This document shows positions 7,946 through 27,464 of a stretch of 64,000 nt of DNA, one piece after another. The notes below the pieces were generated by a model, which was given only the letters and a program-made list of their open reading frames with translations, was not told where the DNA came from and did no database searches. How positions within the stretch are numbered: position 1 is the stretch's first letter; the number at the start of each line of letters is the position of its first letter. Both the position numbers and the translations under genes were made by a program. The DNA comes from Armatimonadota bacterium (GTDB lineage Bacteria > Armatimonadota > Hebobacteria > CAIYQO01): assembly GCA_020060775.1 (NCBI GenBank), contig JAGUZN010000211.1, positions 6,224 through 70,223 of the forward strand. The letters are read 5' to 3'.

Positions 7946-7977
7946 GTGATTTCCTCCCAGTGTATTTGATATATTTT

Positions 7978-8011: not shown

Positions 8012-8120
8012 TGGACAGTCCTAGCTGCTGCTCTCGGTCAGTGATACGGAATTAGCTTATCTCTCTGTCACTGATGGCCTGTGATTCGCCACCTATTGAC
8101 TGGATTACCAATGGCATTTT

Positions 8121-10904: not shown

Positions 10905-10913
10905 AGCTCCTCC

Positions 10914-12362: not shown

Positions 12363-13505
12363 CTATATCCGGTGAGCGTACGCAACAATCGCATCACTAA
12401 TCTCTTCCACCCCTTCGAGCGGCATATGCGAGTACATGGGCAAGGCCAGGCCGCGGGCGGCGAGTTGTTCGGCGACGGGCAGGCGGCCTGCACAGCCGGG
12501 TTCGATATCGCGAAACAGCACCTGGCTATGCAACGCGGGATAGAAGTAGCGCTTTGTCTCGATGCCTTCTTCCTTCAAGTATGCGTAGAGCGCGTCTCTG
12601 GTGAACGGCGCTTCGTGGGGATCGATCTGAATCACTACGTAGTTACGCGTGGAAGTCGCATGGGCTGGGATCATCTGGAAACTGATGCCCGGTATCTCGG
12701 CAAGGCGTGCCTTGTACATCTCCATGATACGCGTGCGATTGGCCGCCCAGATGTCCAGACGGGCGAACGACCAGCGTGCGATGAGGGCGTTGACCTCTTC
12801 GATACGCGCCGAAAGCCCCAGCCAATGCATTTCCTGACCATCAGGCCCCTTGCCATAATCTCGCATGCGCCGTAGTAGCGCCGCCAGTTCATCGTCATTG
12901 GTGGTGATCAGGCCGCCCTCCATGGCAGTGACGACCTTTGTCGGGCTCATACTGAAGGCTTCGCCGCGCCCAAAGTTACCCACGGCGGTGCCGCGATAGG
13001 TGCTGCCAATACCCTGGGCGCTATCGAAGAGTAGGGCCAAGCCATACTGCTCTGCCAGCCGCTGATACGCCTCCATCTCGCCCGGTACGCCAAAGATGCA
13101 CACTGGGAAGATGGCCGAGGTGCGCCGGGTGATGAGTGCTTCCGCTTGGGCGGCATCGAGGGTGAACGTCTCGGGGTCGCTATCGCAAAAGACGGGCGCC
13201 AGATCGTTCCACAGCAAGGCCTGCGCGGTGGCGGCAAAGGTAAAGCTGGGCGTGATGACTTCGCTACCGCGCGGCAATTCCAAGGCCTTTAATAGCAACA
13301 TTAACCCAGCAGTGCCGCATGAGACGGCAATGGTATGTCGGACGCCTAGGCGGGCACATACTTCCTCTTCCAGTAAACTTACTTGCTGCCCAACCGTGAC
13401 GCGTCCACCGGCCAGAATGGCGGCAAACTCTTCGTGGATCTCCGCGGGGTGCGGCAATGTGGGACAGACAATGGGATACCGAACCGGGGCGACAGCGATG
13501 GCCAT
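12363..13505 (-). CDS. DegT/DnrJ/EryC1/StrS-family PLP-dependent sugar aminotransferase (PglE-like).
   Basis: Has a family-typical fold-type I aminotransferase sequence (…SMSPTKVVTAMEGGLITTND…). It is followed on the minus strand by acetyltransferase and PglC-like genes. Confidence 0.9.
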   Translation of the reverse strand: MAIAVAPVRYPIVCPTLPHPAEIHEEFAAILAGGRVTVGQQVSLLEEEVCARLGVRHTIAVSCGTAGLMLLLKALELPRGSEVITPSFTFAATAQALLWNDLAPVFCDSDPETFTLDAAQAEALITRRTSAIFPVCIFGVPGEMEAYQRLAEQYGLALLFDSAQGIGSTYRGTAVGNFGRGEAFSMSPTKVVTAMEGGLITTNDDELAALLRRMRDYGKGPDGQEMHWLGLSARIEEVNALIARWSFARLDIWAANRTRIMEMYKARLAEIPGISFQMIPAHATSTRNYVVIQIDPHEAPFTRDALYAYLKEEGIETKRYFYPALHSQVLFRDIEPGCAGRLPVAEQLAARGLALPMYSHMPLEGVEEISDAIVAYAHRI

Positions 13506-13620
13506 GATGAGACTCCTGATCTGCGCAAACTACCGGGATTATTATAGTACGCTTTCTCGATCCTGCCTAGCACAAACGCCAGAACAGCAAATGCCTGGTA
13601 CGAGGCCTGTGAGGCGGCCT

Positions 13621-14232
13621 TCAGCGCCGAAGCCGAGCGGGATTGCCAAACACAACGGCATTATCGACAATATTACTCACGACGACACTGCCCGCGCCGA
13701 TGGTACAGTCATGTCCGATCATTATGCCCGGTTTCACACAAGCGCCAATACCCATCAGGGTCTCGGCGCCAATATGGACCTGGCCTGCCAGACGTACCCC
13801 GGGCGCGAGGTGCACGGCATCGCCGATGACGCAGTCGTGATCAACTGAGCAGGCGGTATTCAAAATGACGGCACGGCCGACCTGTGTTCGCGCGTTGACG
13901 ACAGCCTGTGCCATGACGACCGTCCCTGCACCGAGCACAGCACTGGGGGAGACGACCGCACTCGGGTGAATGAGCACCGGCAGCTCCCACCCACACTCTC
14001 CAGCACGATGCAGCAGGTGCTCACGTACGGGATTGCTCCCGATTGCCAGTGCAACGCAAGCATGCGGTGGAACTGCCGTCAACGGACCCAACACCGGATA
14101 GCCGAGAACGTGTTGCGTATGCATAGCGGGATTATCATCATAGAAGCCGGCAATCGGCCACGAGAGCGCTTCTACGATCTCCGCGACGACGGCAGCATGT
14201 CCGCCTGCTCCGATAATGTGGAGTTCACGCAT
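13621..14232 (-). CDS. Hexapeptide-repeat sugar N-acetyltransferase (PglD/NeuD family).
   Basis: An N-terminal Rossmann-like segment (MRELHIIGAGGHAAVVAEIVE) is followed by left-handed beta-helix repeats. It lies between the PglC-like and PglE-like genes. Confidence 0.8.
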   Translation of the reverse strand: MRELHIIGAGGHAAVVAEIVEALSWPIAGFYDDNPAMHTQHVLGYPVLGPLTAVPPHACVALAIGSNPVREHLLHRAGECGWELPVLIHPSAVVSPSAVLGAGTVVMAQAVVNARTQVGRAVILNTACSVDHDCVIGDAVHLAPGVRLAGQVHIGAETLMGIGACVKPGIMIGHDCTIGAGSVVVSNIVDNAVVFGNPARLRR

Positions 14233-14243
14233 ATCACAGCCTC

Positions 14244-14867
14244 TTACTTATGCAAGGAAGCCTCAGGCAAATTTACACTGCCTTGAAAAGGCTCCATGGT
14301 CACATGCCCCTGTTGGGAAATGCCATCGCGTCGGAACACTTTGCCAAGGGTGGCAAACAGAATCTTCACATCCAGCAAGAACGTCTGGTGTTCGACGTAC
14401 CAGGCATCCAGTTCAAACCGCTCCTCCCAGCATAAGGCGTTGCGCCCATTGATCTGCGCCCATCCCGTGATGCCGGGTTTCACCGCCAACCGCGTCGCTT
14501 GCCGCGGACTATAGCGATCGTTGTACTCAAGCAATAGCGGGCGTGGTCCCACCAAGCTCATCTCCCCGCGGAGCACGTTGAACAACTGGGGCAACTCATC
14601 CATGCTGGTTGAGCGGATGAATGCACCGACCGGGGTCATACGCTCATGATCGGGTAGCAACTGGCCTTCAGCATCTCGAGCATCGGACATCGTGCGGAAT
14701 TTGAAGAGCGTAAATGGATGACCATGCCGTCCTGCCCGCGATTGACGAAATAGGACGGGGCTGCCCATGCTCCGCCAGATGCACAGGGCTACAACAGCCA
14801 TGACCGGCGATAGTACGGTGAGCATGACCAGTGCAACGATAATGTCAACGAGACGCTTCATCCACAT
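14244..14867 (-). CDS. Small monotopic phosphoglycosyltransferase (PglC/WbaP C-terminal-domain family); initiates a glycan on undecaprenyl phosphate.
   Basis: Contains the conserved core ...FKFRTM...DELPQLFNVLRGEMSLVGPRP... It is ~200 aa with a single N-terminal hydrophobic helix. Confidence 0.88.
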   Translation of the reverse strand: MWMKRLVDIIVALVMLTVLSPVMAVVALCIWRSMGSPVLFRQSRAGRHGHPFTLFKFRTMSDARDAEGQLLPDHERMTPVGAFIRSTSMDELPQLFNVLRGEMSLVGPRPLLLEYNDRYSPRQATRLAVKPGITGWAQINGRNALCWEERFELDAWYVEHQTFLLDVKILFATLGKVFRRDGISQQGHVTMEPFQGSVNLPEASLHK

Positions 14868-14897
14868 ACTCCAGGCGGCAACGACGTGTACGGAAAG

Positions 14898-16163
14898 TTA
14901 CCCGACCCTCTCTATCGTGACAGGATCCTTCATGCCGGAAGGTTCGGTTGCCCCGAGCAACTCGAGCAAATGGTTCTCCAGCTTGAGCGCTAACCGGCGC
15001 ATATCGTGATGTTCGATGACCCACGCCCGCCCGCGTTCTCCCATCGCCACACGCTCCGCTTCCGTGAGATCGCGCAGTTGGAGGATTGCCTGGGCGAGAG
15101 CATGCGGATCTTCGGGAGGGATGGAAATGCCGGACTGTGCCTCCTCGACCGGATTATTCAAACTGCGACAGGCAAAAATCGTGGGGCGCCCGGCATAGAG
15201 ATAATCAAAAAGCTTATTGGCGCTCACCCCGTAGCGAGCGAGTACCGGCATATCGCGCAGGATGAAAATGAAGGCGTGGCTCTGGGAGAAATGTCTCGTC
15301 AACTCCGTCTTGGCGACCGGGGGATGGAAGGCCACATTCTGCAGACCGGCCGCTTCCGCCGACTGCTGGAGCATCACTTTCTGCGGACCATCACCGACCA
15401 GGCGCACCTCGATGCCGGCCCCCTGCGGATGGGCCTGCAATAGTTTAGCCGCCTCAATCACCGTACCAAGCCCGTTCGCCGGACCATGGGATCCGAGGAA
15501 TGACACGACAAAGCGATTCGCTGCGGGGGGCGGCGAATCGATGGCGGCGTAGAGTGTGGTGTCGATGCCATTCGGGATCTGCCAGATATGTTCACGCGGG
15601 ATGCCATGTTGCTCCAGGTAGCCCACCATACCCGGAAAGAGTGCGATCACCCTGTCCGCATGTCGGTAGAGATTGCGTTCGATGTGGCGCAAGTACCAGT
15701 ATATGGGGTGGCGCGTGGACAACGCGCCGACATCGACCAGCGACTCCGGCCAGACGTCGCGTACTTCAAAGACGAACGGGACGCCGAAGCAGCGGGCAAG
15801 TCGCAGCCCGGCATCGGCCGCATGCAGGTGCACACAGGAGCCGATGATCACCTCAGGCGCAGGAAGGTCAGCAGTGGCTCGGCACACACTCTGCCGGTAA
15901 CTCAGCATATTCACGAATCGCTGCACCGTGTTTCGGTACGGCGTGGTGCGCACGAAGCGAAAGCGCACGCCCTCGTACATACGATCGACGTACAAGTCTC
16001 CATCCGGAAGGTCAAAAGCCCGTGCCTGCCCATGGGGCGTTGCGGAGGCGAAGATCGTCACCTCATGCCCGCGCTGCTGCAGATAGCGCGCCAGCGTGGC
16101 ATGACGTGTCCCACCGGCGCCGTCAAGCGGAACAGCGTAGTGATTTAAGATCCAAATGCGCAT
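14898..16163 (-). CDS. Glycosyltransferase family 4 (GT-B fold).
   Basis: Has GT4 architecture. The start MRIWILNHYAVP is chosen at 16163, 18 nt inside the track ORF start. Confidence 0.85.
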   Translation of the reverse strand: MRIWILNHYAVPLDGAGGTRHATLARYLQQRGHEVTIFASATPHGQARAFDLPDGDLYVDRMYEGVRFRFVRTTPYRNTVQRFVNMLSYRQSVCRATADLPAPEVIIGSCVHLHAADAGLRLARCFGVPFVFEVRDVWPESLVDVGALSTRHPIYWYLRHIERNLYRHADRVIALFPGMVGYLEQHGIPREHIWQIPNGIDTTLYAAIDSPPPAANRFVVSFLGSHGPANGLGTVIEAAKLLQAHPQGAGIEVRLVGDGPQKVMLQQSAEAAGLQNVAFHPPVAKTELTRHFSQSHAFIFILRDMPVLARYGVSANKLFDYLYAGRPTIFACRSLNNPVEEAQSGISIPPEDPHALAQAILQLRDLTEAERVAMGERGRAWVIEHHDMRRLALKLENHLLELLGATEPSGMKDPVTIERVG

Positions 16164-16201
16164 GCAGAACTTCTCCAGCACTCATGACTTCGTGTGCACG
16201 T

Positions 16202-17287
16202 TCACGGGGTAAGTGTATGGACGATATGCGTCGAGGCATGCCCTTCACCGTAATACGGACCGGGGTCCGGCAAGGCGGGCGGATGATCAATCAACCGCTC
16301 GATCGCGTGAGCCAAACGGTCGGCATCCGCGCCGACAAGCTGATTCGCCCCGGCCTCGACCGTTTCCACCCATTCAGTTTCATCGCGCAGGGTGACGCAG
16401 GGCACACGGTAGAAGAACGCTTCCTTTTGCACCCCCCCAGAATCCGTTGTGATCGCGAAGGCCGATTCTTCCAACGCCACCATCTCAAGATAGCCGACAG
16501 GGTCGATCAACGTCAACCGTGAGAGGTATTGCTCCGTCAGCCCCTGACCTTCTATGATATGGCGCGTGCGCGGATGCAGGGGCAGCACGACGGGCATATG
16601 CTCGGCCACGCGCTGCAACCCGGTGAATATTTCGCGCAGCCGGTGCGGGTCATCGGTGTTTTCCGCGCGGTGGACGGTGGCAAGCACGTACGACTGTGGC
16701 GTCAGCCCGAGCCTGGCCAGGATGTGCGTCTGTTGCCGCGCCTTCTCACGGTAAAAGAGCGAGGCATCGTACATCACATCCCCCACCAGGTGGATGCGTG
16801 CTTCGGGAATGCCCTCGCGGCGCAGGTGCGCACTGGCCACCTCGGTCGGCGTGAAAAGGAGATCGGACACCTGGTCGGTGAGCACGCGATTGATCTCCTC
16901 TGGCATGCGCCGGTTGAAGGAACGCAGCCCGGCCTCGACATGCGCCACCGGGATATGCAGCTTCACTGCGGCCAATGCCCCCGCCAGCGTCGAGTTCGTA
17001 TCGCCGTAGACGAGCACCCAGTCCGGCTGGCGTTCGAGCACGACCTGCTCAATGCCTTCAAGCATGCGTCCGGTTTGCGCGCCGTGGCTGGCCGAGCCGA
17101 TGCCCAGGTGATAATCCGGACGCGGGATCTCCAACTCGTCGAAAAAGACATCCGACATGTTGGCATCGTAATGCTGCCCGGTATGCACCAGGATTTCGTC
17201 CATCCCGTCACTTGCGCGCAGAACGCGCGAGACGGCAGCCGCCTTGATGAACTGCGGCCGTGCGCCGATGATGGTCACGATCTTCAT
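16202..17287 (-). CDS. wecB: UDP-N-acetylglucosamine 2-epimerase (non-hydrolysing), WecB-like.
   Basis: Begins MKIVTIIGARPQFIKAAAV...HTGQHYD...GDTNSTLAGALAA and carries the WecB signature along the full length. Confidence 0.92.
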   Translation of the reverse strand: MKIVTIIGARPQFIKAAAVSRVLRASDGMDEILVHTGQHYDANMSDVFFDELEIPRPDYHLGIGSASHGAQTGRMLEGIEQVVLERQPDWVLVYGDTNSTLAGALAAVKLHIPVAHVEAGLRSFNRRMPEEINRVLTDQVSDLLFTPTEVASAHLRREGIPEARIHLVGDVMYDASLFYREKARQQTHILARLGLTPQSYVLATVHRAENTDDPHRLREIFTGLQRVAEHMPVVLPLHPRTRHIIEGQGLTEQYLSRLTLIDPVGYLEMVALEESAFAITTDSGGVQKEAFFYRVPCVTLRDETEWVETVEAGANQLVGADADRLAHAIERLIDHPPALPDPGPYYGEGHASTHIVHTLTP

Positions 17288-18402
17288 CCTAACAACTCCT
17301 CGTACACGCTCAATAACTTCCGGCTCTCGCGATCCCAGTTATAGTGTTCTCGCACCGCCTGTCTGCCGCGTTCCCCCATCGCCTCGGCTTCTGCCGGATG
17401 CTCGAGGATCCACTGCATGGCGTCGGCGATCGCCCCTGCATCTTGCGGATCGACCAGTAGCCCGCACTGATGCGTCTCGACAATTGCTCGCCATCGTGGA
17501 AAATCGGAGGCGATCACCGGCAACCCGGCAGCCATATATTCAAACAGCTTATTCGGCTGCGCATCAGTATGATTGGGCACCGGATGGAAGGTGACGATGC
17601 CGGCACGGGCGGCGTCTGCCAGGTGCAACATGGCTTCCCGCGTAATCCACCCGTGAAATCGCACCCGTTTCCATCCGGTTTGTTCGCGCAGTTCCTGCTC
17701 CAAGCTGTCAGGACGAATCACCCCTGCCAGGTCGAGACTCGCATCAAGCACGGCGGGAAATTGGGCCAGGGCATCGACGATTTCAGTAATGCCGCGCAGG
17801 CGAGTAATCCCTCCTGCATACCAAAACCGAGGTGGGCGTTGCGCGTAAAGCGTGCCGGCGACGAATTCGATCTCCTCGGCCAGTGGGAAATTGGATACCA
17901 CGACAGTTTTTACGGGAGGCAGATGCTCAGCGATGGCCGGGGTGGCCGCCACCACGCGCTGAAACAGCGCTGTTCCCACCACTTCAGCAACTCCTGCCAG
18001 CCGACCGACCGCTCTACGCAGCGACTTTGGAATCCATCCCTTGGTCAGGATTTGCCGTGCGACGTCTTCATGGACATCATAGATGACGCGCTTGCCGCAC
18101 AAGCGGAGCAGAATGCCAACCGGGATGAGTTCGGGGTCATGGAAATGGTAGAGATCCGCTTTGAGTCGCAGCGCAGCCGTGAACACCTGCCGGGTAGTGG
18201 CCACCATCCGCTGGCGACGCCCTGCAGGTTTGGGCACAGCACGGAGGGTCACGTCATGCATGTGCCCCTCACCCTCGTGCGGCGCCACGAGCGTCACCTC
18301 GTAACCGGCACGCGAAAGCGACCGACATTCTTTATGGTAGATGCGTACATCGTCAGGGCGGTGTACGGTGGTTAGATGGCAAATACGTCGTGAGTCGGTC
18401 AT
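17284..18402 (-). CDS. Glycosyltransferase family 4.
   Basis: A GT4 sequence (…FHGWITREAM… EX7E-like C-terminal region). It overlaps the wecB start by 4 bp. Confidence 0.85.
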   Translation of the reverse strand: MTDSRRICHLTTVHRPDDVRIYHKECRSLSRAGYEVTLVAPHEGEGHMHDVTLRAVPKPAGRRQRMVATTRQVFTAALRLKADLYHFHDPELIPVGILLRLCGKRVIYDVHEDVARQILTKGWIPKSLRRAVGRLAGVAEVVGTALFQRVVAATPAIAEHLPPVKTVVVSNFPLAEEIEFVAGTLYAQRPPRFWYAGGITRLRGITEIVDALAQFPAVLDASLDLAGVIRPDSLEQELREQTGWKRVRFHGWITREAMLHLADAARAGIVTFHPVPNHTDAQPNKLFEYMAAGLPVIASDFPRWRAIVETHQCGLLVDPQDAGAIADAMQWILEHPAEAEAMGERGRQAVREHYNWDRESRKLLSVYEELLG

Positions 18403-20682: not shown

Positions 20683-20689
20683 TCTTTCT

Positions 20690-22057
20690 TCACACGACAG
20701 CTTCCCTTGGTAAACGTGAGATAACTGTTCTGCGCTTACCGGATTCCCCTCTGTCAATACCTTCGACATACTCAAACGCGATCTGTATGTCAGATCCGAT
20801 CATACGAACGATACAGTCACGTAAGTAGTCTTCGTCGTCTGAGGAATACTTCGGACACTTGACAATATTAACTGTCAAGTGTTTCCAGTCATGCTGAACG
20901 ATTTGGTATTCTTTCACGGTGGGACGATCGCTAAAGACAATGGTGAACGCTGGAGCTGTCACTATCATTCCTTCAGGGGTACGTATACAGTCATCCACAC
21001 GGCCTTCAAGCGAGGCAATTCTTGGTAAATGACGCCCGCAAGGGCAAGAGGTACCTTCATCAGCAAAAGTACCGATATCGCCAATTTCGTAGCGAATGAA
21101 CGGAAAAGCATAATTATGCAAATCCGTAACGACTATGCGCCCGGTCACCCCTGGTGGGCACGGACGCCCTTGATCATCGAGAATTTCGATATATACGCAA
21201 TCAGCATTTATGTGCATGCCTCGATGCACTTCACACTCTGCCGCAATACTCATTTCACGACTACCATAGGCATCAAACACCTTGCAGGAGAATACTTCCT
21301 CTATAATTGCTCTTTGCTGTGGAAATAGAGTATCTGACGAAGTCATAATCGTGTTGACATTGGCTGAAATATTATTATCTTTCATTAGATGTGCAAATTG
21401 CGAAATAGCGGACGCGTAGCCACAAAGTGCCACAGGTTTAAATGTGTGTAGTTCGTGCAGAAAATTTTTTAGAGTTTCTGGGGATAACTGATAGGCAGAT
21501 ACCCAACGAAACCTTAAAAGACGACTGGTGATTCTTGATACGAGTCTCTGCATAAGAAAATAGTCGAAATGGGATCCACTAACCTTAATATACTTCTCTC
21601 CGATGTGTAATCCTGCCCAAGCACTGTTCCGAATCACTGCAGCCCTGATGTAGTCTAGTGCAGCAGTATTATGAAAAAAACGCGTTGGGACGCCTGTCGA
21701 ACCACCTGTTCTCCCTGCGACGAGTTGCTCTATTGGAAAAGCTGTGGAGATCATTCTATCAAAGTTTTCATTGATCCTCGCTTTTGTAAGAATTGGGAGC
21801 TGTTGAAGATCCTTCAACGAGGTGAGCGCTTTCGGATTAAGGCCAGACTGTTGTAGGGTTGTCGTATAGTACGGGACGGTGGCAGCAGCATGCTGAAGCA
21901 ACGCCTGTAGGCGGTCGAGTTGGTATGATGCAATTTGTTCTGCAGACCACCATTGTTGCTCATCGAGTTCTGCGATCCGCCGACTCAAGTTACGTCCACG
22001 CAAGCGGTCGAAGCAGGGGTAAAGCACACGCTTTGCTAATACAGGATACCAGTCCAT
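20690..22057 (-). CDS. CapK / coenzyme F390 synthetase / phenylacetate-CoA-ligase-like adenylate-forming enzyme.
   Basis: Has the PaaK-like fold signature (…GGSTGVPTRFFH… …YGSREMS…). Homologues are recurrent in capsule loci (CapK). Confidence 0.75.
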   Translation of the reverse strand: MDWYPVLAKRVLYPCFDRLRGRNLSRRIAELDEQQWWSAEQIASYQLDRLQALLQHAAATVPYYTTTLQQSGLNPKALTSLKDLQQLPILTKARINENFDRMISTAFPIEQLVAGRTGGSTGVPTRFFHNTAALDYIRAAVIRNSAWAGLHIGEKYIKVSGSHFDYFLMQRLVSRITSRLLRFRWVSAYQLSPETLKNFLHELHTFKPVALCGYASAISQFAHLMKDNNISANVNTIMTSSDTLFPQQRAIIEEVFSCKVFDAYGSREMSIAAECEVHRGMHINADCVYIEILDDQGRPCPPGVTGRIVVTDLHNYAFPFIRYEIGDIGTFADEGTSCPCGRHLPRIASLEGRVDDCIRTPEGMIVTAPAFTIVFSDRPTVKEYQIVQHDWKHLTVNIVKCPKYSSDDEDYLRDCIVRMIGSDIQIAFEYVEGIDRGESGKRRTVISRLPREAVV

Positions 22058-23392
22058 CTATCTATTACCTTTAGCGACTAGATGCAGAATTGTAATGGCC
22101 ATTACGACATTAATCAAGATGCCTGCCAAGCTGTATAGACCAATACCCAACAGAGCATCATTCATGAACAACGCTATTGCAATAACGCTTGCACGAAGAG
22201 AGAAACCGAAGACTTCGATGACCGTCAGCCAACGCTGTGCACCGATTACCTGAAACACGACTGAAGTAGGCTGTACAGCCAGTACCACTAACAGCCACGG
22301 CAAAATAAAACGTGCATACTCACCGGAAACACGGTAGTTCTCGCCAAAGACAACGGCAAATAGATCAGGTGAGTACACAAAGAGTATAACCGCAGGGATC
22401 AGAGCTAGCCCTATCAAGGAGGCATATACCATGAGCACTAACTTTTTCAGGCTATTACCGGCATGATGATAAGTACACGCCTTCTGATAAAACACGGTAG
22501 TAAAGGACTGACTGACTAATGTAATTGGGATGGCCAATACGCGAAACGCCAGAAAGTAGTGCCCGGCGACTGCCGTACCGAAGGCAATGGGAAATAACAG
22601 CCCGGGCAGGTGCATGGCGGCTCCACCGAGCAGGGCATTCACGGTGGAGAACCGGGGAAAGTCGCGAAACGTTCGAGCGACCGTGCGCATTCGCGGGAGA
22701 CTGATGCCGCTAAAGGCCGCTCGGTTATCCCGCCATGCGCCACGCGCAAGCGAGAACACTCCCCCACTGCGACCGATAATATCTCCACACAACAACCCGA
22801 ATGCCCCTGCGTGCAACAGGCCAAGTCCGACTTGGGATAGCACCATGCCGATGCCCTGGGTAATTTTCGTCGTTGAGATCCGAGCGTACGATTGTTGCCG
22901 GATAGCGAGAAAATTGAACGCTTGATACCCCCCGGACCCCAGCAGGCCCAGGGGAATAAGGAATATAAACTTGCCGATGGATGGGTCGCCGATCAGTTGT
23001 GCAATGCGTCCACCGAATAACAACGTGACCACCAGTGTCGCCAGAGACATCATTAGCAGTAGCGCGATCGAGAGCGCAAGCAGATTCGATGCTTGTCGAT
23101 CACGCTTGGCCACCGGGATTGCCTGTTCGTAGCGCCACGACCCCAGGATAACCAATACGGAAACGACGGCCGTGAAGAACGAGAGCACCCCAAAGTCTTT
23201 CGGGTCATACAAGCGGCTAAGAATAGGAGATGACGCCGCGGCGACGACTTGAGCAATGGCTGTCCCTCCGGCAACCATTGTGACATTCCACCCGAAGCGT
23301 CCGCGGCCAAATACTGATCTCAATAGCGAAGGGACCGCAGAAATGGAAAACGGCCTTCCCGTTACCGTACTGACGGGGAGCGTATCAGGCAT
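22058..23392 (-). CDS. Wzx-type polysaccharide flippase (MOP/PST family).
   Basis: 12-TM topology, and the N-terminal region (…VTMVAGGTAIAQVVAAASSPILSRLY…) is typical of this family. The start is chosen at MPDTLPVS (23392), just after the Wzz stop. The track start 23605 would overlap Wzz by 220 bp. Confidence 0.8.
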   Translation of the reverse strand: MPDTLPVSTVTGRPFSISAVPSLLRSVFGRGRFGWNVTMVAGGTAIAQVVAAASSPILSRLYDPKDFGVLSFFTAVVSVLVILGSWRYEQAIPVAKRDRQASNLLALSIALLLMMSLATLVVTLLFGGRIAQLIGDPSIGKFIFLIPLGLLGSGGYQAFNFLAIRQQSYARISTTKITQGIGMVLSQVGLGLLHAGAFGLLCGDIIGRSGGVFSLARGAWRDNRAAFSGISLPRMRTVARTFRDFPRFSTVNALLGGAAMHLPGLLFPIAFGTAVAGHYFLAFRVLAIPITLVSQSFTTVFYQKACTYHHAGNSLKKLVLMVYASLIGLALIPAVILFVYSPDLFAVVFGENYRVSGEYARFILPWLLVVLAVQPTSVVFQVIGAQRWLTVIEVFGFSLRASVIAIALFMNDALLGIGLYSLAGILINVVMAITILHLVAKGNR

Positions 23393-24826
23393 GGGTTCCC
23401 TCGTGAAGCTGTTGAGCATCCAACACCACCTGGGTGCGGAACCATTCACGATACGGCAGGAGCGTGGCGAACGCCAAACCGAGCAAGGCCAGGAGCACAA
23501 TGATACGTACTCGACCAGCGCTATCCGGTTGCTCGGGCAACTCGGCGTGGTCCAGCAACACGAAATTCGGTCCTCGTGACTGCTCGACAATGCGCGCTTT
23601 TTCAAGTTCCTGGCGCAGCAACTTCACGGTAGCGACGTTTGCCTCTAACTCTGCCTGCAATCGGGCATACGCCGCTTGCTGCTTGGGTAACCTTTCAACG
23701 GTTGTTTGCATCTTGCGTAAAGCGGCATCCAGCCCCTCGGCACGCGCATGGCTGGCTGCCGCCTGGATCACTGCGGGGTACAATACCGGGGATCCACCTT
23801 GATCGAGTGCAGAGAGTTGACGATCAATTTCTGCATTGAGGACCTTCTGGGCACGCTGCAATTCGGCTTGTTTGGCCTGTACATCCGGGTGGTGAGCGGT
23901 CAATTTCTCTGACAGCAGCGCCAACTCAGTCTCGATTTTCGTGACCTGTTGGTAAAGCTGTGCAAGCGTATTACCTACTGCCGGGTTTGGATCAATGCAC
24001 GCTTCAACCATCTTGCCGGCCACGTCGGTCATCACGCGCACCTGTCGCATGGCTGTGGAGGCCTCGAGATCTGCCGCAGTTTTGTCGCTTTGCATCTTGG
24101 CATACTGTTCGGCCAATGCTCTCGCCTGGTCAGGCATGGATACAATATGGTTGGCCCGTTGAAAATCCAACATGGCCGACGTCGCAACCCGGAGTTTGCG
24201 ATCAGCCTCCTGCACTTGCTGTTCCAGAAAAGCAACACTCTGTTCAGCAGGATTGATGCCGAGTTCTTTGGAGAGTACCTGGAGTTCATGCACCAGTGCT
24301 GACGCAACCCTGTAGGCGGTCTGCGGCTGACGGTCACGGAAGCCAACATATAACTCGCCCTGCTTACCGACCTTAATCTCCATATTCTCGCGGAGCTTCT
24401 CCAGTGTTTCGCGATCGTCCAGCTTCCACGCGTTCGCCAAGTCAAGGGGGTCATTCGCATCGTGATGCAATTGATGCAGTACCTCGCGCAACGATCGGTT
24501 GCTCTCAAGAATCAGGCTGGCCGTGACAGCACTGGTGCCAGGTTGGGGAACCATTAAGGCCCCTTCCAGTAAGGGCAGACTGGGTAGGTCACCGCTTCCA
24601 CCACCACCGAGTAAGCTCATTCGGGAGGCGGGGGCGGAAGGGAAGAGCAGGGTCGCTGTTGATGTATAGGTCGTTGGACGCAGTACGGCAATGACGATGC
24701 CCAGGAGAAGACCGATAGCCATACCGACTAACAGCGTTTTCCGGTACTTCCACACAATGGACAGGAAGCGGGGAGGCATAGGCACTGTTGGGCATTCCGC
24801 AAGGTGATCGATTTGCTGTGTCATGG
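23385..24826 (-). CDS. Wzz/GumC/ExoP-family polysaccharide co-polymerase (chain-length determinant). There is no C-terminal kinase domain.
   Basis: Two terminal TM helices flank a long coiled-coil periplasmic region. The start is MTQQIDHL (24826) with an AGGA upstream. Confidence 0.7.
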
Positions 24827-25353
24827 TCAGTCCTGCAGCTTCAGTTCGGTCGATTCGGCGACTTTCGGGGGAAGGTCGCCAGGGAATGTTCTCCTGATGG
24901 ATGTCATCGAGTAGGGGCCGCCCGAAAATCGGGCAACGCATTTCCCCATCAGTTCACTTCAACAATAGTGGCAAGACGAGTGCCCGATTTACCTGGGGGG
25001 TGTGCACTATATCTCTCGCCTATCAGGGTACCGCGCGTTGACGTGCCGCAAACCTGCGACCTGCGTTCCGCCCGGAATAACTGACAGTCCGATACCGGGG
25101 CGTGCGCAAAGCCGCTGTCAGTCCTGCGCCCTGTGTTCGACAACACCGGTAAGCACCAGTACTTCTCTCGTGACTGCTGGCTATTGTACCCGCTTTGGAC
25201 AAGCGTTTCAAGCCATCCCCCAAGGTGCCTGCTCTTCTCTGCCATGCTGCCAGGCAGTTCCACGTGATGCGTGATCTGTCCACGCATACCCTTTGACATG
25301 TCGCATACCTCCTACCCCGTACCGGCTTGATCGGCGTGCTCGCATGATTGAGT

Positions 25354-25385
25354 CAGGGTGCAGGTTGGGTGAAAGCTGCACCCTG
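25354..25385 (+). promoter_or_regulatory. Strong hairpin in the 5' leader of the divergent aminotransferase gene (CAGGGTGCAG-12 nt-CTGCACCCTG). A second hairpin, CGTGCAC-tct-GTGCACG, lies at ~25437-25453.
   Basis: A perfect 10-bp inverted repeat sits in a 715-bp divergent intergenic region between wzz and degT2. Confidence 0.35.
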
Positions 25386-25541
25386 TGGTTCCCGTTTATC
25401 GGGACTCCTGCACTCCCCGTCACCATGGGTGTACAACCGTGCACTCTGTGCACGAACCTTGTCGCGACTTCGGCGATTACCGATCCATGGGCGGTCTACA
25501 CTGGAGATAACGCGGGTTCCAGGGGAAGGATGTGGCGGACC

Positions 25542-26702
25542 ATGAGGGTCAAGTCGTTTTTACCGTTTGCGCCGCCGGCGATCGGCGAGGAAGAGATCGA
25601 AGAGGTGGTGGACAGTCTGCACTCGGACTGGATCACCACCGGGCCGAAAGTGCAGCAGTTCCAGCAGGCGTTCGCGGAGTATCTGGGGTCACCAGGGGCG
25701 CTGGCGTTGAATTCCTGCACGGCGGGGCTGCACACGGCGCTGGCGACGCTGGGCATCGGGCACGGCGACGAGGTGATCACCACGCCGATGACCTTTGCGG
25801 CATCGGTGAATGTGATCGAGCATGTGGGGGCAACGCCGGTGCTGGCGGACGTGGAGCCGGATACGCTGAACATCGACCCGGCGCGAGTGGAACCGGCGAT
25901 CACGCCGCGCACGCGCGCCCTGCTCATCGTGCATTACAGCGGGCACCCGGCGAACCTGGCGGCACTGCGCGACCTGGCTTACCGTCACGGCCTGGCCATG
26001 GTCGAAGATGCCGCCCATGCGTTGCCGGCACGCTACCGCGGCGAACTGATCGGCGCTTCATCCACCCCGACCGCCTTCAGCTTTTACGCCACCAAGAATA
26101 TGACGACCGCCGAGGGAGGCATGCTCACCGGCGATCCGGAGTTCATCGAGCGCGCGCGCATGATCAGCCTGCATGGGATGAACCGCGATGCCTGGAAGCG
26201 CTATGGCCAGGGCGGCAACTGGTTCTACGAGGTGGTGTTCCCCGGATTCAAATATAACATGACGGATATCCAGGCGGCCATGGGCATTCACCAGTTGCAG
26301 AAGCTGGAGCAGTTTCAACGGCGCCGGCAGCAGATCGTGCAGGCGTACACCGCCGCCTTCGCCGGAGAGGATACACTGGAGACGCCCACCGTGCGTCCGG
26401 ATGTCGAGCATGCCTGGCATCTGTACGTGCTGCGGCTGCGCCATGCAGCGCTCACCATCTCGCGTGAACAGTTCATCGAGGAGTTGGGACAGCGGAATAT
26501 CGGTACTTCGGTGCATTTCATCCCGATTCACCTGCACCCCTATTACCGCGACAAATACGGGTACCGCCCGGGCGATTTCCCGGTCGCCTACGAACACTAT
26601 CAGCGCATGCTTAGCCTGCCGCTGCACCCGCGTATGTCGGAAGAAGATGTGGCGGATGTGATCGACGCGGTGCTGGATGTGACGAGGCACTACCACCGAT
26701 GA
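25542..26702 (+). CDS. DegT/ArnB/PglE-family sugar aminotransferase (copy 2).
   Basis: Begins MRVKSFLPFAPPAIGEEEIEEVVDSLHSDWITTGPKV... and contains ...SFYATKNMTTAEGGM... GGAAGGA lies 12 nt upstream of this ATG. The track start 25293 adds an 83-aa GC-rich extension. Confidence 0.9.
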   Translation: MRVKSFLPFAPPAIGEEEIEEVVDSLHSDWITTGPKVQQFQQAFAEYLGSPGALALNSCTAGLHTALATLGIGHGDEVITTPMTFAASVNVIEHVGATPVLADVEPDTLNIDPARVEPAITPRTRALLIVHYSGHPANLAALRDLAYRHGLAMVEDAAHALPARYRGELIGASSTPTAFSFYATKNMTTAEGGMLTGDPEFIERARMISLHGMNRDAWKRYGQGGNWFYEVVFPGFKYNMTDIQAAMGIHQLQKLEQFQRRRQQIVQAYTAAFAGEDTLETPTVRPDVEHAWHLYVLRLRHAALTISREQFIEELGQRNIGTSVHFIPIHLHPYYRDKYGYRPGDFPVAYEHYQRMLSLPLHPRMSEEDVADVIDAVLDVTRHYHR

Positions 26703-27295
26703 CCATGGCGAAACGGTGCTTCGATCTCTGGTGGACGGTGCTGGGGCTCGTGCTGCTCTGCCCGTTGTTCCTGCTCATCGCGCTGGTGATCTGGCTGGAC
26801 GACCGCGGCCCGGTCTTTTACCGGCAGGTGCGCGTGGGACGGAACGGCATGCCGTTCCGCATCTGGAAGTTTCGCACCATGACGGTCAACGCCGACCGCA
26901 TCGGCGCGGCACTGACGGTAGGGCGCGACCCGCGCATCACGCGCATTGGCCACTGGCTGCGCGCATCCAAGCTGGACGAGTTGCCGCAACTCTTCAACGT
27001 GCTCACCGGCGAAATGAGCCTGGTGGGTCCGCGCCCGGAGGTGCCGGATTACGTGGCGCACTACACCACCGAACAACAGCCCGTGTTGGTCCTCATACCC
27101 GGCATCACCGATCCGGCCTCAATCACCTATCGCGATGAGAGCGAGGTGCTGGGGGCTGCGGAGGATCCACAACGCCTCTATCTGCAGGAGATCATGCCGG
27201 CGAAAATCCGCCTGAACCTCGACTATGCCGAACGCGCGAACGTATTCACCGATTTCACAGTGATCCTGCACACCTTCGCCAGGATCGTCCGCTAA
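26699..27295 (+). CDS. Small monotopic phosphoglycosyltransferase (PglC-like, copy 2).
   Basis: Shares the …FRIWKFRTM…LDELPQLFNVLTGEMSLVGPRPE… core. It overlaps the aminotransferase stop by 4 bp. Confidence 0.88.
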   Translation: MTMAKRCFDLWWTVLGLVLLCPLFLLIALVIWLDDRGPVFYRQVRVGRNGMPFRIWKFRTMTVNADRIGAALTVGRDPRITRIGHWLRASKLDELPQLFNVLTGEMSLVGPRPEVPDYVAHYTTEQQPVLVLIPGITDPASITYRDESEVLGAAEDPQRLYLQEIMPAKIRLNLDYAERANVFTDFTVILHTFARIVR

Positions 27296-27464
27296 CTCCC
27301 CTACCCTGCCCATCATAAATAATTTCATGGTGGTCTGCAACTGTGTTTCCCGGCGCGCGTATGAATGGGTGTAGGACGCCACAGCCCCCAGCGCGATCCG
27401 CCCATCCTGTTTGAGTTCGGGCGCACGGCCCCCCGACGCCCACGTTGCCGAAAGGAGGCACACC

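What the first reader, a model, noticed from the sequence alone, without database searches (positions are those of the whole stretch)
12363..27295. Glycan locus with a bacillosamine-type module (PglE-PglD-PglC order) and a second divergent aminotransferase + PglC-like pair: two initiating transferases in one locus
On the minus strand the locus ends with sugar transferase, hexapeptide acetyltransferase, DegT aminotransferase (14867 down to 12363). This is the pglC-pglD-pglE order used for UDP-diNAcBac synthesis and transfer in protein-glycosylation and O-antigen systems. No 4,6-dehydratase (PglF-like) is in the window. At the other end, divergently transcribed from wzz, is a second DegT-family aminotransferase translationally coupled (4-bp overlap) to a second small monotopic phosphoglycosyltransferase (25542-27295). 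Two PglC-class initiating enzymes plus Wzx/Wzy/Wzz, two GT4s, WecB, a C5-epimerase-like protein and a CapK-like ligase suggest one of two things. Either two different glycans are initiated here, or a single amino-/uronic-sugar heteropolymer has alternative priming sugars.
Basis: partly seen in the sequence, partly recalled or inferred. Interest (0 to 1): 0.6.

Follow-up and report, generated by a model that had tools for sequence, protein, structure and literature searches.

The report
Surface-sugar locus with two starter cassettes
This is a fairly ordinary bacterial gene cluster for a surface polysaccharide, unusual only in carrying two different, individually well-known "starter" enzyme cassettes (one predicted for di-N-acetylbacillosamine, one for the free-amine sugar FucNAc4N/AATGal) that both depend on a dehydratase encoded outside the window.

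Summary
The 4-bp overlap at 26699-26702 is real, and no PglF-type 4,6-dehydratase or remnant lies anywhere in the 64 kb.

Both transferases are intact small monotopic phosphoglycosyl transferases with the Asp-Glu dyad, but they belong to different subfamilies.

- **PGT1 (14244-14867):** PglC/EpsL type. It carries all published UDP-diNAcBac signatures and sits beside a PglD/PglB-type acetyltransferase and a DesI-like aminotransferase.
- **PGT2 (26699-27295) with its coupled aminotransferase:** a WbgY/WbgX (WcfS/WcfR) type cassette, predicted to prime with FucNAc4N (AATGal).

Both branches need UDP-4-keto-6-deoxy-GlcNAc from an unlinked dehydratase. That is not unusual: B. fragilis PSA lacks the gene in its operon, as do 18 of 40 related loci examined.

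Two initiating-transferase genes in one locus also has a precedent (Acinetobacter KL9). A second small transferase occurred in 3 of 36 related loci, though none paired a PglC type with a FucNAc4N type. Whether both cassettes are used, for one polymer or two, cannot be decided from sequence.

Verdict: a mosaic Wzx/Wzy locus, a new member of a known kind, of modest interest.

The parts
12363..13505 (-). AT1: DegT-family sugar aminotransferase, last gene of the minus-strand operon. Predicted to form an equatorial 4-amine (bacillosamine branch).
   Evidence: PF01041 at 329 bits. Best solved relative is DesI at 192 bits. The PLP-binding lysine is kept in 'SPTKVV'. Only 28% identical to WbgX. Closest relatives, at 60-70% identity, are mostly Armatimonadota MAGs. 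A promoter-like site of its own lies at 13569-13541.
13621..14232 (-). AcT: PglD/PglB-type N-acetyltransferase (PglD_N domain plus left-handed beta-helix).
   Evidence: PF17836 and PF00132. TIGR03570 at 233.7 bits against a cut-off of 160.8. Best solved relative is 4m98 ('Pilin glycosylation protein') at 157.6 bits, then PerB at 136 and C. jejuni PglD at 114.6. The 'VDHDC' histidine motif is conserved in the printed alignment to 4m98.
14244..14867 (-). PGT1: small monotopic phosphoglycosyl transferase of the PglC/EpsL type. Predicted reaction: UDP-diNAcBac plus Und-P gives Und-PP-diNAcBac.
   Evidence: PF02397 at 223 bits. Gapless 214-bit alignment to C. concisus PglC 8g1n. Has D90-E91, GQLLP at 68-72, aromatic box Y115/Y119/W147/F151/F194 and the C-terminal extension. 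Has one N-terminal hydrophobic segment.
14898..16181 (-). GT4a: GT4-family glycosyltransferase beside WecB.
   Evidence: Glyco_trans_4_4, Glyco_transf_4 and Glycos_transf_1. 44% identical to the GT4 that lies between WecB and the AT-PGT-dehydratase cassette in Brockia (L002).
16202..17287 (-). WecB: non-hydrolysing UDP-GlcNAc 2-epimerase (ManNAc supply).
   Evidence: PF02350 at 392.9 bits. TIGR00236 at 361.7 bits against a cut-off of 210. Orthologues at 58-66% identity lie in three PGT2-type loci, L002, L004 and L036.
17284..18402 (-). GT4b: second GT4-family glycosyltransferase.
   Evidence: Glycos_transf_1 and Glyco_trans_1_4. Overlaps both neighbours by 4 bp.
18399..19334 (-). Soluble protein with a D-glucuronyl C5-epimerase C-terminal domain. 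Candidate uronic-acid or sugar epimerase; substrate unknown.
   Evidence: PF06662 at 156.8 bits. No NCBIfam match. No similarity to S. sonnei WbgV. No hydrophobic segment.
19321..20775 (-). Wzy-like polytopic membrane protein, the probable repeat-unit polymerase. The true start is probably downstream of the listed TTG.
   Evidence: TIGR04370 at 37.4 bits, just under its cut-off of 40. Nine hydrophobic segments. GC 0.445 and GC3 0.46 against about 0.59 and 0.70 for the surroundings.
20690..22057 (-). Adenylate-forming enzyme of the PaaK/F390-synthetase/CapK kind. Role unknown; it may modify a sugar.
   Evidence: AMP-binding at 29.5 bits against a gathering score of 29.9. DVU_1553-family, FlxY and PaaK models all match below their cut-offs. 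28% identical to a protein with a weak CapK_C hit in L121. GC3 0.43.
22058..23605 (-). Wzx flippase (MOP family). The true start is probably internal, because the ORF overlaps wzz by 221 bp.
   Evidence: PF13440 at 63.8 bits, with the match beginning at residue 128. Nine hydrophobic segments, all after residue 135.
23385..24941 (-). Wzz/PCP-type chain-length determinant, first gene of the minus-strand operon.
   Evidence: PF02706 at 31.5 bits and a weak GNVR match. TIGR03007 and TIGR03017 match below cut-off. Two hydrophobic segments, one at each end.
24942..25541 (.). 600-bp divergent intergenic region between wzz and AT2.
   Evidence: Gap of 600 bp. Promoter-like site on the minus strand at 25211-25183, 10 of 12 matches. 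No Rfam family match.
25542..26702 (+). AT2: WbgX/WcfR/ArnB-like sugar 4-aminotransferase. Predicted reaction: UDP-4-keto-6-deoxy-GlcNAc gives UDP-FucNAc4N (axial amine).
   Evidence: PF01041 at 427 bits. 48% identical over its full length to S. sonnei WbgX. Best solved relatives are ArnB at 320 bits and Spr1654 (6ewj) at 262, against PglE (1o61) at 119. The lysine is kept in 'YATKNM'. GC3 0.81.
26699..27295 (+). PGT2: small monotopic phosphoglycosyl transferase of the WbgY/WcfS type, translationally coupled to AT2. Predicted reaction: UDP-FucNAc4N plus Und-P gives Und-PP-FucNAc4N.
   Evidence: PF02397 at 197.8 bits. Has D93-E94 and P111-R112-P113. Shares the subfamily marks PRPEV, PGITDxAS, a 16-residue insertion and a short C-terminus with WbgY and the Fusobacterium and Parabacteroides homologues. 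Identity is 48.8-54.7% to those. Only 37% identical to PGT1. GC3 0.84.
27411..28568 (+). ORF of unknown function with an N-terminal signal or anchor segment. It occupies the position where many relatives carry the dehydratase. Whether it belongs to the locus is doubtful.
   Evidence: No Pfam or NCBIfam match. No homologue in any fetched locus. One N-terminal hydrophobic segment. No similarity to PglF-type dehydratases.

Best explanation
The region is a mosaic Wzx/Wzy-dependent surface-polysaccharide locus (O-antigen or EPS type). Each end carries a different amino-sugar starter cassette.

**Cassette 1** is the last three genes of the minus-strand operon wzz-wzx-ligase-wzy-epimerase-GT4-wecB-GT4-PGT1-AcT-AT1.
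1. AT1 aminates UDP-4-keto-6-deoxy-GlcNAc to UDP-bacillosamine.
2. The PglD/PglB-type acetyltransferase makes UDP-diNAcBac.
3. The PglC/EpsL-type PGT1 transfers diNAcBac-1-P to undecaprenyl phosphate.
4. The two GT4 enzymes extend this primer, one probably with ManNAc supplied by WecB.
5. Wzx flips the unit, Wzy polymerises it and Wzz sets chain length.

**Cassette 2** is a separate two-gene operon transcribed divergently from wzz.
1. The WbgX/WcfR-like AT2 makes UDP-FucNAc4N (AATGal) from the same keto-sugar.
2. The WbgY/WcfS-like PGT2, translationally coupled to AT2, puts it on undecaprenyl phosphate.

Both branches depend on a PglF/WbpM/UngD2-type 4,6-dehydratase that is not in the window and must be encoded elsewhere.

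**Shown:** gene order, domain content, catalytic residues, subfamily signatures, and absence of the dehydratase from the window.

**Inferred:** the sugar substrates, the C4 stereochemistry of each aminotransferase, the operon boundaries, and the existence of the unlinked dehydratase.

**My guess for the unresolved step:** PGT1 is the operon-coupled primer. PGT2 offers a second, separately regulated primer that enters the same assembly line (about 0.3). The alternatives, a separate glycan or a silent cassette, are nearly as likely.
For: **PGT1**
- 214-bit gapless alignment to C. concisus PglC.
- The GLLLP loop, the five aromatic-box residues and the C-terminal extension that define UDP-diNAcBac enzymes in PMC10186338 are all present.

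**AcT**
- Passes TIGR03570.
- Best solved relative is 4m98 ('Pilin glycosylation protein'), with the 'VDHDC' histidine motif conserved in the alignment.

**AT1**
- Best solved relative is DesI. DesI forms an equatorial 4-amine; that point is my own knowledge, not checked here.

**PGT2 and AT2**
- 48.8% and 48% identical to WbgY and WbgX of the S. sonnei FucNAc4N O-antigen cluster.
- PGT2 is 50% identical to a Fusobacterium and 54.7% to a Parabacteroides homologue. It shares their subfamily-specific insertion and motifs.
- F. nucleatum and B. fragilis WcfS enzymes of this kind are assigned UDP-FucNAc4N in PMC11626204. The F. nucleatum and S. pneumoniae enzymes were shown to use it in the substrate screen.
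- AT2 is much closer to ArnB and to Spr1654 (6ewj), the predicted AATGal aminotransferase of S. pneumoniae, than to PglE.

**Cassette conservation**
- An aminotransferase lies within 400 bp of PGT2-type genes in 37 of 55 informative loci. The 4-bp overlap recurs in several phyla.
- PGT-AcT-AT order recurs for PGT1 orthologues.

**Unlinked dehydratase is normal**
- 18 of 40 related loci lack it.
- B. fragilis PSA lacks it in the operon.
- Relatives named Armatimonadota lack it within 10 kb.

**Operon structure and mosaicism**
- Gaps of -221 to +30 bp run from wzz through AcT, with 115 bp before AT1 and 600 bp between wzz and AT2.
- GC3 is 0.43-0.46 for wzy and the ligase, 0.81-0.84 for AT2 and PGT2, and about 0.70 for the flanks.
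Against: - No enzyme activity or glycan structure is available, so all substrates are predictions from similarity.
- AT1 is only 32-33% identical to the aminotransferases in the PGT1-type modules L032-L035. Its orthologues in genomes named Armatimonadota can occur without any transferase nearby.
- The AcT is also close to perosamine N-acetyltransferase PerB, at 136 bits.
- The salt-bridge lysine of PglC (K196) is a proline in PGT1.
- The exact landmark sequences (WcfS Q93QV6, F. nucleatum D5RFH4) were not available. PGT2 was compared with close stand-ins.
- The required dehydratase was not found, and the source genome could not be retrieved.
- No outer-membrane exporter, ligase or oligosaccharyltransferase lies in the window, so the final destination of the glycan is unknown.
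Confidence: 0.65

Rival explanations
1. Redundant or relic cassette. Only one transferase is used, most likely PGT1 because it sits in the assembly operon. The AT2-PGT2 pair is a leftover of module exchange. It once belonged to an AT-PGT-dehydratase trio, lost its dehydratase, and is now silent or useless.
For: - In the closest cross-phylum relatives the cassette is a trio with a 613-654-aa PglF-type dehydratase directly downstream.
- In the window that position holds an unrelated ORF.
- AT2 and PGT2 have a GC3 of 0.81-0.84, unlike their neighbours. The middle of the locus has a GC3 of 0.43-0.46, so the locus has been rebuilt by horizontal transfer.
- Acinetobacter KL9 carries itrB2 and itrA3 together, and ItrB2 is reported non-functional.
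Against: - Both ORFs are full length (386 and 198 aa, like their relatives) with every catalytic and nearly every invariant residue kept.
- The 4-bp translational coupling is intact.
- Dehydratase-less AT-PGT cassettes that do work exist, in B. fragilis PSA. They are also common among relatives: 18 of 40 loci, plus L040 and L124.
- PGT1 needs the same unlinked dehydratase, so losing the linked copy does not single out cassette 2.
Confidence: 0.25
2. Two separate glycans. PGT1 primes the Wzx/Wzy polymer of its own operon. PGT2 primes a different glycoconjugate whose glycosyltransferases, flippase and ligase or oligosaccharyltransferase lie elsewhere in the genome.
For: - The two transferases lie in different, divergently transcribed units separated by 600 bp.
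- They belong to different specificity subfamilies.
- In genomes named Armatimonadota, AT1 and AT2 orthologues are conserved neighbours irrespective of nearby glycan genes. This suggests roles beyond one variable locus.
Against: - Polysaccharide loci are usually self-contained, and no glycosyltransferase accompanies PGT2.
- WecB orthologues (58-66%) sit beside PGT2-type cassettes in three loci, and a GT4a orthologue (44%) does so in Brockia. The window's GT4a and WecB may therefore well act on the PGT2 product.
Confidence: 0.2
3. The AcT-AT1 pair does not make UDP-diNAcBac. It makes another N-acetylated 4-amino-6-deoxy sugar, such as dTDP-Qui4NAc (VioA/VioB-like) or GDP-PerNAc (Per/PerB-like), used as a donor sugar. 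PGT1 then uses some other substrate.
For: - AT1's best solved relatives are DesI at 192 bits and perosamine synthases at about 170.
- AcT scores 136 bits to PerB and 95 to VioB.
- AT1 is only 32-36% identical to the aminotransferases of other PGT1-type modules.
Against: - PGT1 carries the full diNAcBac signature.
- PGT-AcT-AT is the recurring order of that module.
- AcT's best solved relative (4m98) outscores PerB and VioB. The scan named no rml, gmd or man genes in the window.
Confidence: 0.1
4. A pgl-type protein glycosylation system in the Campylobacter or Neisseria style, rather than a polymerised polysaccharide.
For: diNAcBac-priming PglC-PglD-PglE modules are the hallmark of those systems.
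Against: - No Wzy_C (PglL/WaaL-type ligase) or oligosaccharyltransferase match was reported for any scanned ORF in the window.
- The operon has a Wzy-like polymerase candidate and a Wzz chain-length protein, which point to a polymer.
- The same module also serves exopolysaccharide synthesis (B. subtilis EpsL; the nearest hits are named EpsL by JGI; PMC10653937 is listed).
Confidence: 0.08

Closest known systems
Campylobacter PglC-PglD-PglE, Neisseria PglB/PglC and B. subtilis EpsL-EpsM-EpsN modules for UDP-diNAcBac synthesis and transfer
   Same: - Gene order is PGT, acetyltransferase, aminotransferase.
- PGT1 is about 50% identical to C. concisus PglC, with the dyad, GxLLP loop, aromatic box and C-terminal extension.
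- The acetyltransferase has the PglD_N plus beta-helix architecture. Its best solved relative is 4m98 ('Pilin glycosylation protein'), with C. jejuni PglD third.
   Different: - The aminotransferase is DesI-like rather than PglE-like. PglE is not among its solved relatives at E below 1e-30.
- No PglF-type dehydratase or oligosaccharyltransferase is nearby.
- The module sits in a Wzx/Wzy/Wzz polymer operon.
S. sonnei / P. shigelloides O17 wbgX-wbgY-wbgZ and B. fragilis PSA wcfR-wcfS (FucNAc4N/AATGal initiation cassettes)
   Same: - An aminotransferase lies directly upstream of a roughly 195-aa monotopic PGT at the end of a Wzx/Wzy locus.
- Identity is 48% to WbgX and 48.8% to WbgY.
- The subfamily insertion and motifs are shared.
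- As in B. fragilis, the dehydratase is not in the locus.
   Different: - In S. sonnei the dehydratase WbgZ follows directly.
- In the window the cassette is transcribed divergently from the rest of the locus, and a second PglC-type cassette is also present.
Acinetobacter baumannii K loci with exchangeable or duplicated initiating-transferase modules (KL9 itrB2 + itrA3; KL70 versus KL9)
   Same: - One Wzx/Wzy locus carries two initiating-transferase genes.
- Module swapping changes only the first sugar while Wzy and the other transferases stay the same.
- One of the two can be non-functional.
   Different: - In KL9 the two enzymes come from different superfamilies (polytopic ItrB and monotopic ItrA) and lie side by side.
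- Here both are monotopic, sit at opposite ends of the locus, and each has its own sugar-modifying enzyme.

Membership tests
Small monotopic phosphoglycosyl transferases (Bac_transf, PF02397) | Pfam Bac_transf domain above the gathering score, in a protein of about 200 aa | tested here: met
   PGT1 scores 223 bits and PGT2 197.8 bits against a cut-off of 27. Lengths are 207 and 198 aa.
Small monotopic phosphoglycosyl transferases (Bac_transf, PF02397) | Catalytic Asp-Glu dyad (D93-E94 of C. concisus PglC) and the PRP nucleotide-binding motif | tested here: met
   PGT1 has D90-E91 and P108-R109-P110. PGT2 has D93-E94 and P111-R112-P113. These columns are invariant in the alignment.
Small monotopic phosphoglycosyl transferases (Bac_transf, PF02397) | Single N-terminal re-entrant membrane helix with a conserved proline break | tested here: met
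   Each protein has one N-terminal hydrophobic segment. The proline (P21 in PGT1, P22 in PGT2) is invariant in the alignment. Re-entrant topology itself was not modelled.
UDP-diNAcBac-specific PglC subfamily (Anderson et al. 2023, PMC10186338) | Aromatic box (Y118, Y122, W150, F154, F197 of C. concisus PglC) | tested here: met
   PGT1 has Y115, Y119, W147, F151 and F194 (gapless alignment; motif). PGT2 lacks W150, F154 and F197 and has an insertion there, so PGT2 does not meet this feature.
UDP-diNAcBac-specific PglC subfamily (Anderson et al. 2023, PMC10186338) | GLLLP mobile-loop motif and the roughly 14-residue C-terminal extension | tested here: met
   PGT1 has GQLLP at 68-72 and an extension ending ...GHVTMEPFQG.... 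PGT2 has 'GAALTVGRDP' instead and ends right after the last helix, so it does not meet this feature. The K196 salt-bridge partner is a proline in PGT1.
UDP-diNAcBac-specific PglC subfamily (Anderson et al. 2023, PMC10186338) | Score of at least 200 on the authors' subfamily HMM; activity with UDP-diNAcBac | not testable with these tools
   The authors' HMM is not available. The nearest proxy is 214 bits to C. concisus PglC itself for PGT1, against 84 bits for PGT2.
UDP-FucNAc4N (AATGal) small PGTs: WcfS/WbgY kind, SSN clusters 10 and 6 of PMC11626204 | Close similarity to landmark enzymes of the cluster, with shared subfamily-specific sequence features | tested here: met
   PGT2 is 48.8% identical to S. 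sonnei WbgY, 50% to a Fusobacterium vincentii homologue and 54.7% to a Parabacteroides distasonis homologue. Shared features are PRPEV, PGITDxAS, a 16-residue insertion and a short C-terminus. The exact landmark sequences (Q93QV6, D5RFH4) were not at hand, so SSN cluster membership was not computed.
UDP-FucNAc4N (AATGal) small PGTs: WcfS/WbgY kind, SSN clusters 10 and 6 of PMC11626204 | Adjacent WcfR/WbgX-type 4-aminotransferase | tested here: met
   AT2 overlaps PGT2 by 4 bp and is 48% identical to WbgX. It scores 320 bits to ArnB and 262 to Spr1654, against 119 to PglE.
UDP-FucNAc4N (AATGal) small PGTs: WcfS/WbgY kind, SSN clusters 10 and 6 of PMC11626204 | A UDP-GlcNAc 4,6-dehydratase (PglF/WbgZ/UngD2) available in the cell | not testable with these tools
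   Absent from the window. The rest of the genome could not be retrieved.
PglD/PglB-ATD/WeeI UDP-bacillosamine N-acetyltransferases (NeuD/PglB/VioB family) | PglD_N Rossmann-like domain plus left-handed beta-helix, family HMM above cut-off, catalytic histidine | tested here: met
   PF17836 at 58.9 bits and PF00132. TIGR03570 at 233.7 bits against a cut-off of 160.8. 'VDHDC' aligns with 4m98. Substrate was not tested, and PerB scores nearly as well.
Wzx/Wzy-dependent polysaccharide assembly | Wzx flippase, Wzy polymerase and a PCP (Wzz) in the locus | tested here: inconclusive
   Wzx (63.8 bits) and Wzz (31.5 bits) pass their Pfam cut-offs. The Wzy candidate scores 37.4 against a cut-off of 40 on TIGR04370, but has 9 hydrophobic segments and the usual low GC. 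No Wza-type exporter or WaaL lies in the window.
pgl-type protein glycosylation systems | An oligosaccharyltransferase (PglB/STT3 or PglL/PglO with a Wzy_C domain) with the locus | tested here: not met
   No STT3 or Wzy_C match appeared in any scanned ORF of the window. The rest of the genome was not searchable.

The most novel reading that the evidence does not exclude
Both cassettes are active and feed the same assembly line. One Wzx/Wzy locus can then start its repeat unit either with neutral diNAcBac (operon-coupled) or with the free-amine sugar FucNAc4N (separately transcribed from the divergent promoter). Both come from a single unlinked dehydratase. That would be a built-in switch that changes the charge of the polymer, towards a zwitterionic form like B. 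fragilis PSA, without changing the rest of the machinery.
Probability: 0.15. Interest if true: 0.6.

Novelty: new member of a known kind. Interest (0 to 1): 0.3.

Why it matters
If both cassettes work, the locus would be a natural example of one polysaccharide assembly line accepting two different priming sugars that differ in C4 stereochemistry and charge. That bears on how O-antigen and capsule diversity arises by module exchange, and on how tolerant Wzy and the first glycosyltransferase are of the reducing-end sugar. It would also give two easily testable enzymes for checking the published sequence rules for PGT specificity in a poorly studied lineage, probably Armatimonadota. If only one works, the locus is a snapshot of an intermediate in module replacement, which is expected and already documented in Acinetobacter.

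Tried and rejected
1. **Recovering the source genome** to look for the dehydratase and an oligosaccharyltransferase.
   - Exact-protein look-ups found nothing on record.
   - The genome-collection scan returned only relatives at 65% identity or less.
   - The cluster look-up showed only that the source is a 77,040-bp contig held by NCBI and JGI.
2. **A decayed dehydratase** after PGT2 or after AT1. tblastn with three dehydratases found none.
3. **The C5-epimerase-domain protein as a WbgV homologue** (S. sonnei 'UDP-GalNAcA C5 epimerase'). No similarity.
4. **A regulatory RNA in the 600-bp divergent region.** No Rfam match at E up to 1.
5. **Promoter and terminator scans.** Counts were at or below the shuffle expectation, so they served only as weak hints.
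6. **Repeats.** The one long inverted repeat (14523-14615 against 26960-27052, 74% complementary) is just the conserved catalytic core of the two transferase genes on opposite strands.
7. **The same double arrangement elsewhere.** Among 68 PGT2-type loci, three had a second small transferase, and none was PglC type. Loci around PGT1 and AT1 relatives did not show it either.
8. **Structure prediction and fold search** were not run. Sequence-level evidence was already decisive for family and subfamily.

Full report
**1. What is in the sequence**

The region 12.3-27.3 kb has two transcription units that face away from each other across a 600-bp gap (24942-25541).

The minus-strand unit runs from 24941 down to 12363. 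From wzz through the acetyltransferase the genes overlap or lie up to 30 bp apart. One 115-bp gap precedes the last gene. Its genes, in order:

| Coordinates | Gene | Key evidence |
|---|---|---|
| 23385-24941 | Wzz-type protein | PF02706, 31.5 bits |
| 22058-23605 | Wzx | PF13440, 63.8 bits |
| 20690-22057 | PaaK/CapK-like adenylate-forming enzyme | all family matches below cut-off |
| 19321-20775 | Wzy-like membrane protein | TIGR04370 37.4 against cut-off 40; nine hydrophobic segments |
| 18399-19334 | C5-epim_C protein | 156.8 bits |
| 17284-18402 | GT4b | |
| 16202-17287 | WecB | TIGR00236 361.7 against cut-off 210 |
| 14898-16181 | GT4a | |
| 14244-14867 | PGT1, Bac_transf | 223 bits |
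| 13621-14232 | AcT, PglD_N plus hexapeptide | TIGR03570 233.7 against cut-off 160.8 |
| 12363-13505 | AT1, DegT | 329 bits |

The plus-strand unit is a DegT aminotransferase (AT2, 25542-26702, 427 bits) and a Bac_transf protein (PGT2, 26699-27295, 197.8 bits). They overlap by 4 bp.

**2. The missing dehydratase**

No large ORF in the 64 kb has a Polysacc_synt_2 domain. tblastn with three PglF-type dehydratases from related loci found nothing except the known PglD_N-domain similarity at 14068-14244.

The ORF after PGT2 (27411-28568) has a signal-like N-terminus and no family match. It has no homologue in any fetched locus.

**3. The two transferases are both real but not of the same kind**

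They are 37% identical to each other.

*PGT1* is PglC/EpsL type.
- It aligns without a gap to C. concisus PglC (8g1n) at 214 bits.
- Anderson et al. (PMC10186338) define UDP-diNAcBac enzymes by three features. These are an aromatic box (Y118, Y122, W150, F154, F197), a GLLLP loop and a C-terminal extension of about 14 residues.
- PGT1 has Y115, Y119, W147, F151 and F194, GQLLP at 68-72, the extension, and the dyad D90-E91.
- The only departure is a proline where PglC has the salt-bridge lysine K196.
- Its nearest database relatives, at 60-70% identity across many phyla, are called EpsL by JGI.

*PGT2* is WbgY/WcfS type.
- It has the dyad (D93-E94) and the PRP motif but lacks the aromatic box, the GLLLP loop and the extension.
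- Instead it carries PRPEV, PGITDPAS and a 16-residue insertion. It shares these with S. sonnei WbgY and with Fusobacterium and Parabacteroides homologues.
- Identity to those three is 48.8%, 50% and 54.7% respectively.
- Small PGTs of this kind from F. nucleatum, B. fragilis (WcfS), C. botulinum and S. pneumoniae are assigned to UDP-FucNAc4N in PMC11626204. The F. nucleatum and S. pneumoniae enzymes were shown to use it, with some UDP-Bac as well.

**4. The partner enzymes fit the same split**

- AT2 is 48% identical over its full length to WbgX.
- AT2's best solved relatives are ArnB (320 bits) and Spr1654 (6ewj, 262 bits). Spr1654 is the S. pneumoniae aminotransferase predicted to form AATGal. 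C. jejuni PglE scores only 119.
- AT1 is 28% identical to WbgX. Its best solved relative is DesI at 192 bits.
- From my own knowledge, not tested here, ArnB-type enzymes give an axial (galacto-like) 4-amine and DesI gives an equatorial (gluco) one. On that basis AT2 would make FucNAc4N and AT1 bacillosamine.
- The acetyltransferase's best solved relative is 4m98/4m99, named 'Pilin glycosylation protein', at 157.6 bits. From memory, this is the Neisseria PglB acetyltransferase domain. PerB follows at 136, C. jejuni PglD at 114.6 and VioB at 95. The 'VDHDC' histidine motif is kept.

**5. Context in other genomes**

*PGT2-type genes.*
- They are highly conserved (about 65% identity) across phyla.
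- They usually follow an AT2-type aminotransferase, often with the same 4-bp overlap.
- In the best-matching loci a 613-654-aa PglF-type dehydratase follows them. S. sonnei has wbgX-wbgY-wbgZ. Fusobacterium has the same three genes in the order dehydratase-PGT-aminotransferase.
- I examined 68 non-redundant PGT2-type loci:
  - An aminotransferase lay within 400 bp in 37 of 55 informative cases.
  - A dehydratase was present in 22 of 40 loci with at least 6 kb of flank.
- An absent dehydratase is therefore common. It is documented for B. fragilis PSA, where UngD2 is encoded outside the operon (PMC13063421). It is also seen in Parabacteroides and in a MAG named Armatimonadota (L124).

*PGT1-type genes.* They recur in the order PGT-AcT-aminotransferase, with or without a nearby dehydratase.

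*Second transferases.* A second small transferase gene within about 10 kb occurred in 3 of 36 PGT2-type loci. None was PglC type: they were 35-40% identical to PGT1, against 64-68% for true orthologues. The particular pairing seen here was not found elsewhere.

**6. Signs of mosaic origin**

- GC3 values differ sharply across the locus.

  | Genes | GC3 |
  |---|---|
  | wzy and the ligase | 0.43-0.46 |
  | wzz, wzx, the epimerase-domain gene, GT4b, AcT, PGT1 | 0.59-0.65 |
  | AT1, GT4a, WecB and the flanking signalling genes | 0.69-0.76 |
  | AT2 and PGT2 | 0.81-0.84 |

- WecB orthologues (58-66%) sit in three PGT2-type loci. A GT4a orthologue (44%) lies directly between WecB and the AT-PGT-dehydratase cassette in Brockia.
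- The window's WecB-GT4a pair is thus found elsewhere with the FucNAc4N cassette, whereas here it abuts the diNAcBac cassette. This looks like module exchange. It is the main hint that the PGT2 product could enter the same assembly line.
- AT1's closest relatives are mostly MAGs named Armatimonadota. In two such genomes an AT1 orthologue (69%) and an AT2 orthologue (71%) lie 2-3 kb apart.
  - No PGT2 lies next to the AT2 orthologue in either genome.
  - No dehydratase lies within 10 kb.
- The two aminotransferases may therefore be conserved landmarks of the lineage, with the variable glycan genes placed between or beside them.

**7. Most likely mechanism**

1. An unlinked dehydratase makes UDP-4-keto-6-deoxy-GlcNAc.
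2. AT1, AcT and PGT1 turn it into Und-PP-diNAcBac.
3. AT2 and PGT2 turn it into Und-PP-FucNAc4N.
4. The two GT4 enzymes extend the primer, with WecB supplying ManNAc.
5. The epimerase-domain protein and the adenylate-forming enzyme possibly modify a sugar.
6. Wzx, Wzy and Wzz flip, polymerise and size the product.

The cassette identities are well supported by similarity (confidence about 0.65). The fate of the PGT2 product is open. My guess is a second primer for the same line (about 0.3). A silent leftover (about 0.25) and a separate glycan (about 0.2) come next.

**8. Comparison with what is known, and novelty**

Each cassette is a known kind. Loci with two initiating-transferase genes are also known. 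Acinetobacter KL9 has itrB2 and itrA3, and ItrB2 is reported non-functional. K70 and K9 differ only in the first sugar while sharing Wzy.

What may be new is the specific pairing of a diNAcBac cassette and a FucNAc4N cassette around one Wzx/Wzy set. I rate it a new member of a known kind, with interest 0.3.

The most novel reading still open is a charge-switching dual primer. I give it probability about 0.15 and interest 0.6 if true.

Noticed in passing
window 12363-13505 and 25542-26702; L121 10001-11146 and 14075-15253; L123 10001-11146 and 13267-14436: In two genomes named Armatimonadota, orthologues of AT1 (69%) and AT2 (71%) are near neighbours, 2-3 kb apart on the same strand with an Ig-like-domain gene between them. 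No PGT2 and no dehydratase lie nearby. In one of them (L123) there are no glycan genes at all. The two aminotransferases may be conserved landmarks that bracket a variable glycan locus, and the source organism is probably from this phylum.
   Followed up: partly
window 3014-12101 (minus strand) and 31408-37898 (plus strand): The glycan locus lies between two paralogous signalling modules arranged as mirror images: histidine kinase, LuxR-type response regulator, MCP and CheW. Amino-acid identity is 53% for the MCPs, 53% for the regulators and 64% for CheW. A 679-nt inverted match at 75.6% links 5988-6658 with 37183-36513. This is an old inverted duplication, and its relation to the glycan genes is unknown.
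   Followed up: partly
window 19321-22057: The Wzy-like gene and the adenylate-forming enzyme gene form a low-GC island (GC 0.445-0.461, GC3 0.43-0.46) in a window that is otherwise 59% GC. This is typical of horizontally acquired serotype-specific genes.
   Followed up: partly
window 14523-14615 and 26960-27052: A 93-nt inverted repeat, 74% complementary, is formed by the conserved catalytic cores of the two transferase genes on opposite strands, 12.3 kb apart. It is probably too divergent for homologous recombination, but it would bracket the whole locus.
   Followed up: no
window 27411-28568: A 385-codon ORF has a signal-like N-terminus, no family match and no homologue in any related locus. 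It sits where many relatives have the dehydratase.
   Followed up: partly
window 18399-19334: A soluble 311-aa protein has a strong match (156.8 bits) to the C-terminal domain of D-glucuronyl C5-epimerase, yet the window has no uronic-acid dehydrogenase. It is unrelated to S. sonnei WbgV, and its substrate is unknown.
   Followed up: partly
L121 / L122 5232-11146: In a MAG named Armatimonadota, the AT1 orthologue ends a module of Aminotran_1_2, 2-hydroxyacid dehydrogenase, a 245-aa Bac_transf protein, a GNAT and an ATP-grasp enzyme. This suggests a 4-amino sugar N-acylated with something other than acetate. It recalls the ATP-grasp UDP-yelosamine route mentioned for B. cereus in PMC11626204.
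   Followed up: no
window 56969-58975 (minus) versus 56885-57547 and 57923-58999 (plus): Long overlapping ORFs lie on both strands and none has a Pfam match, so it is unclear which strand is coding.
   Followed up: no
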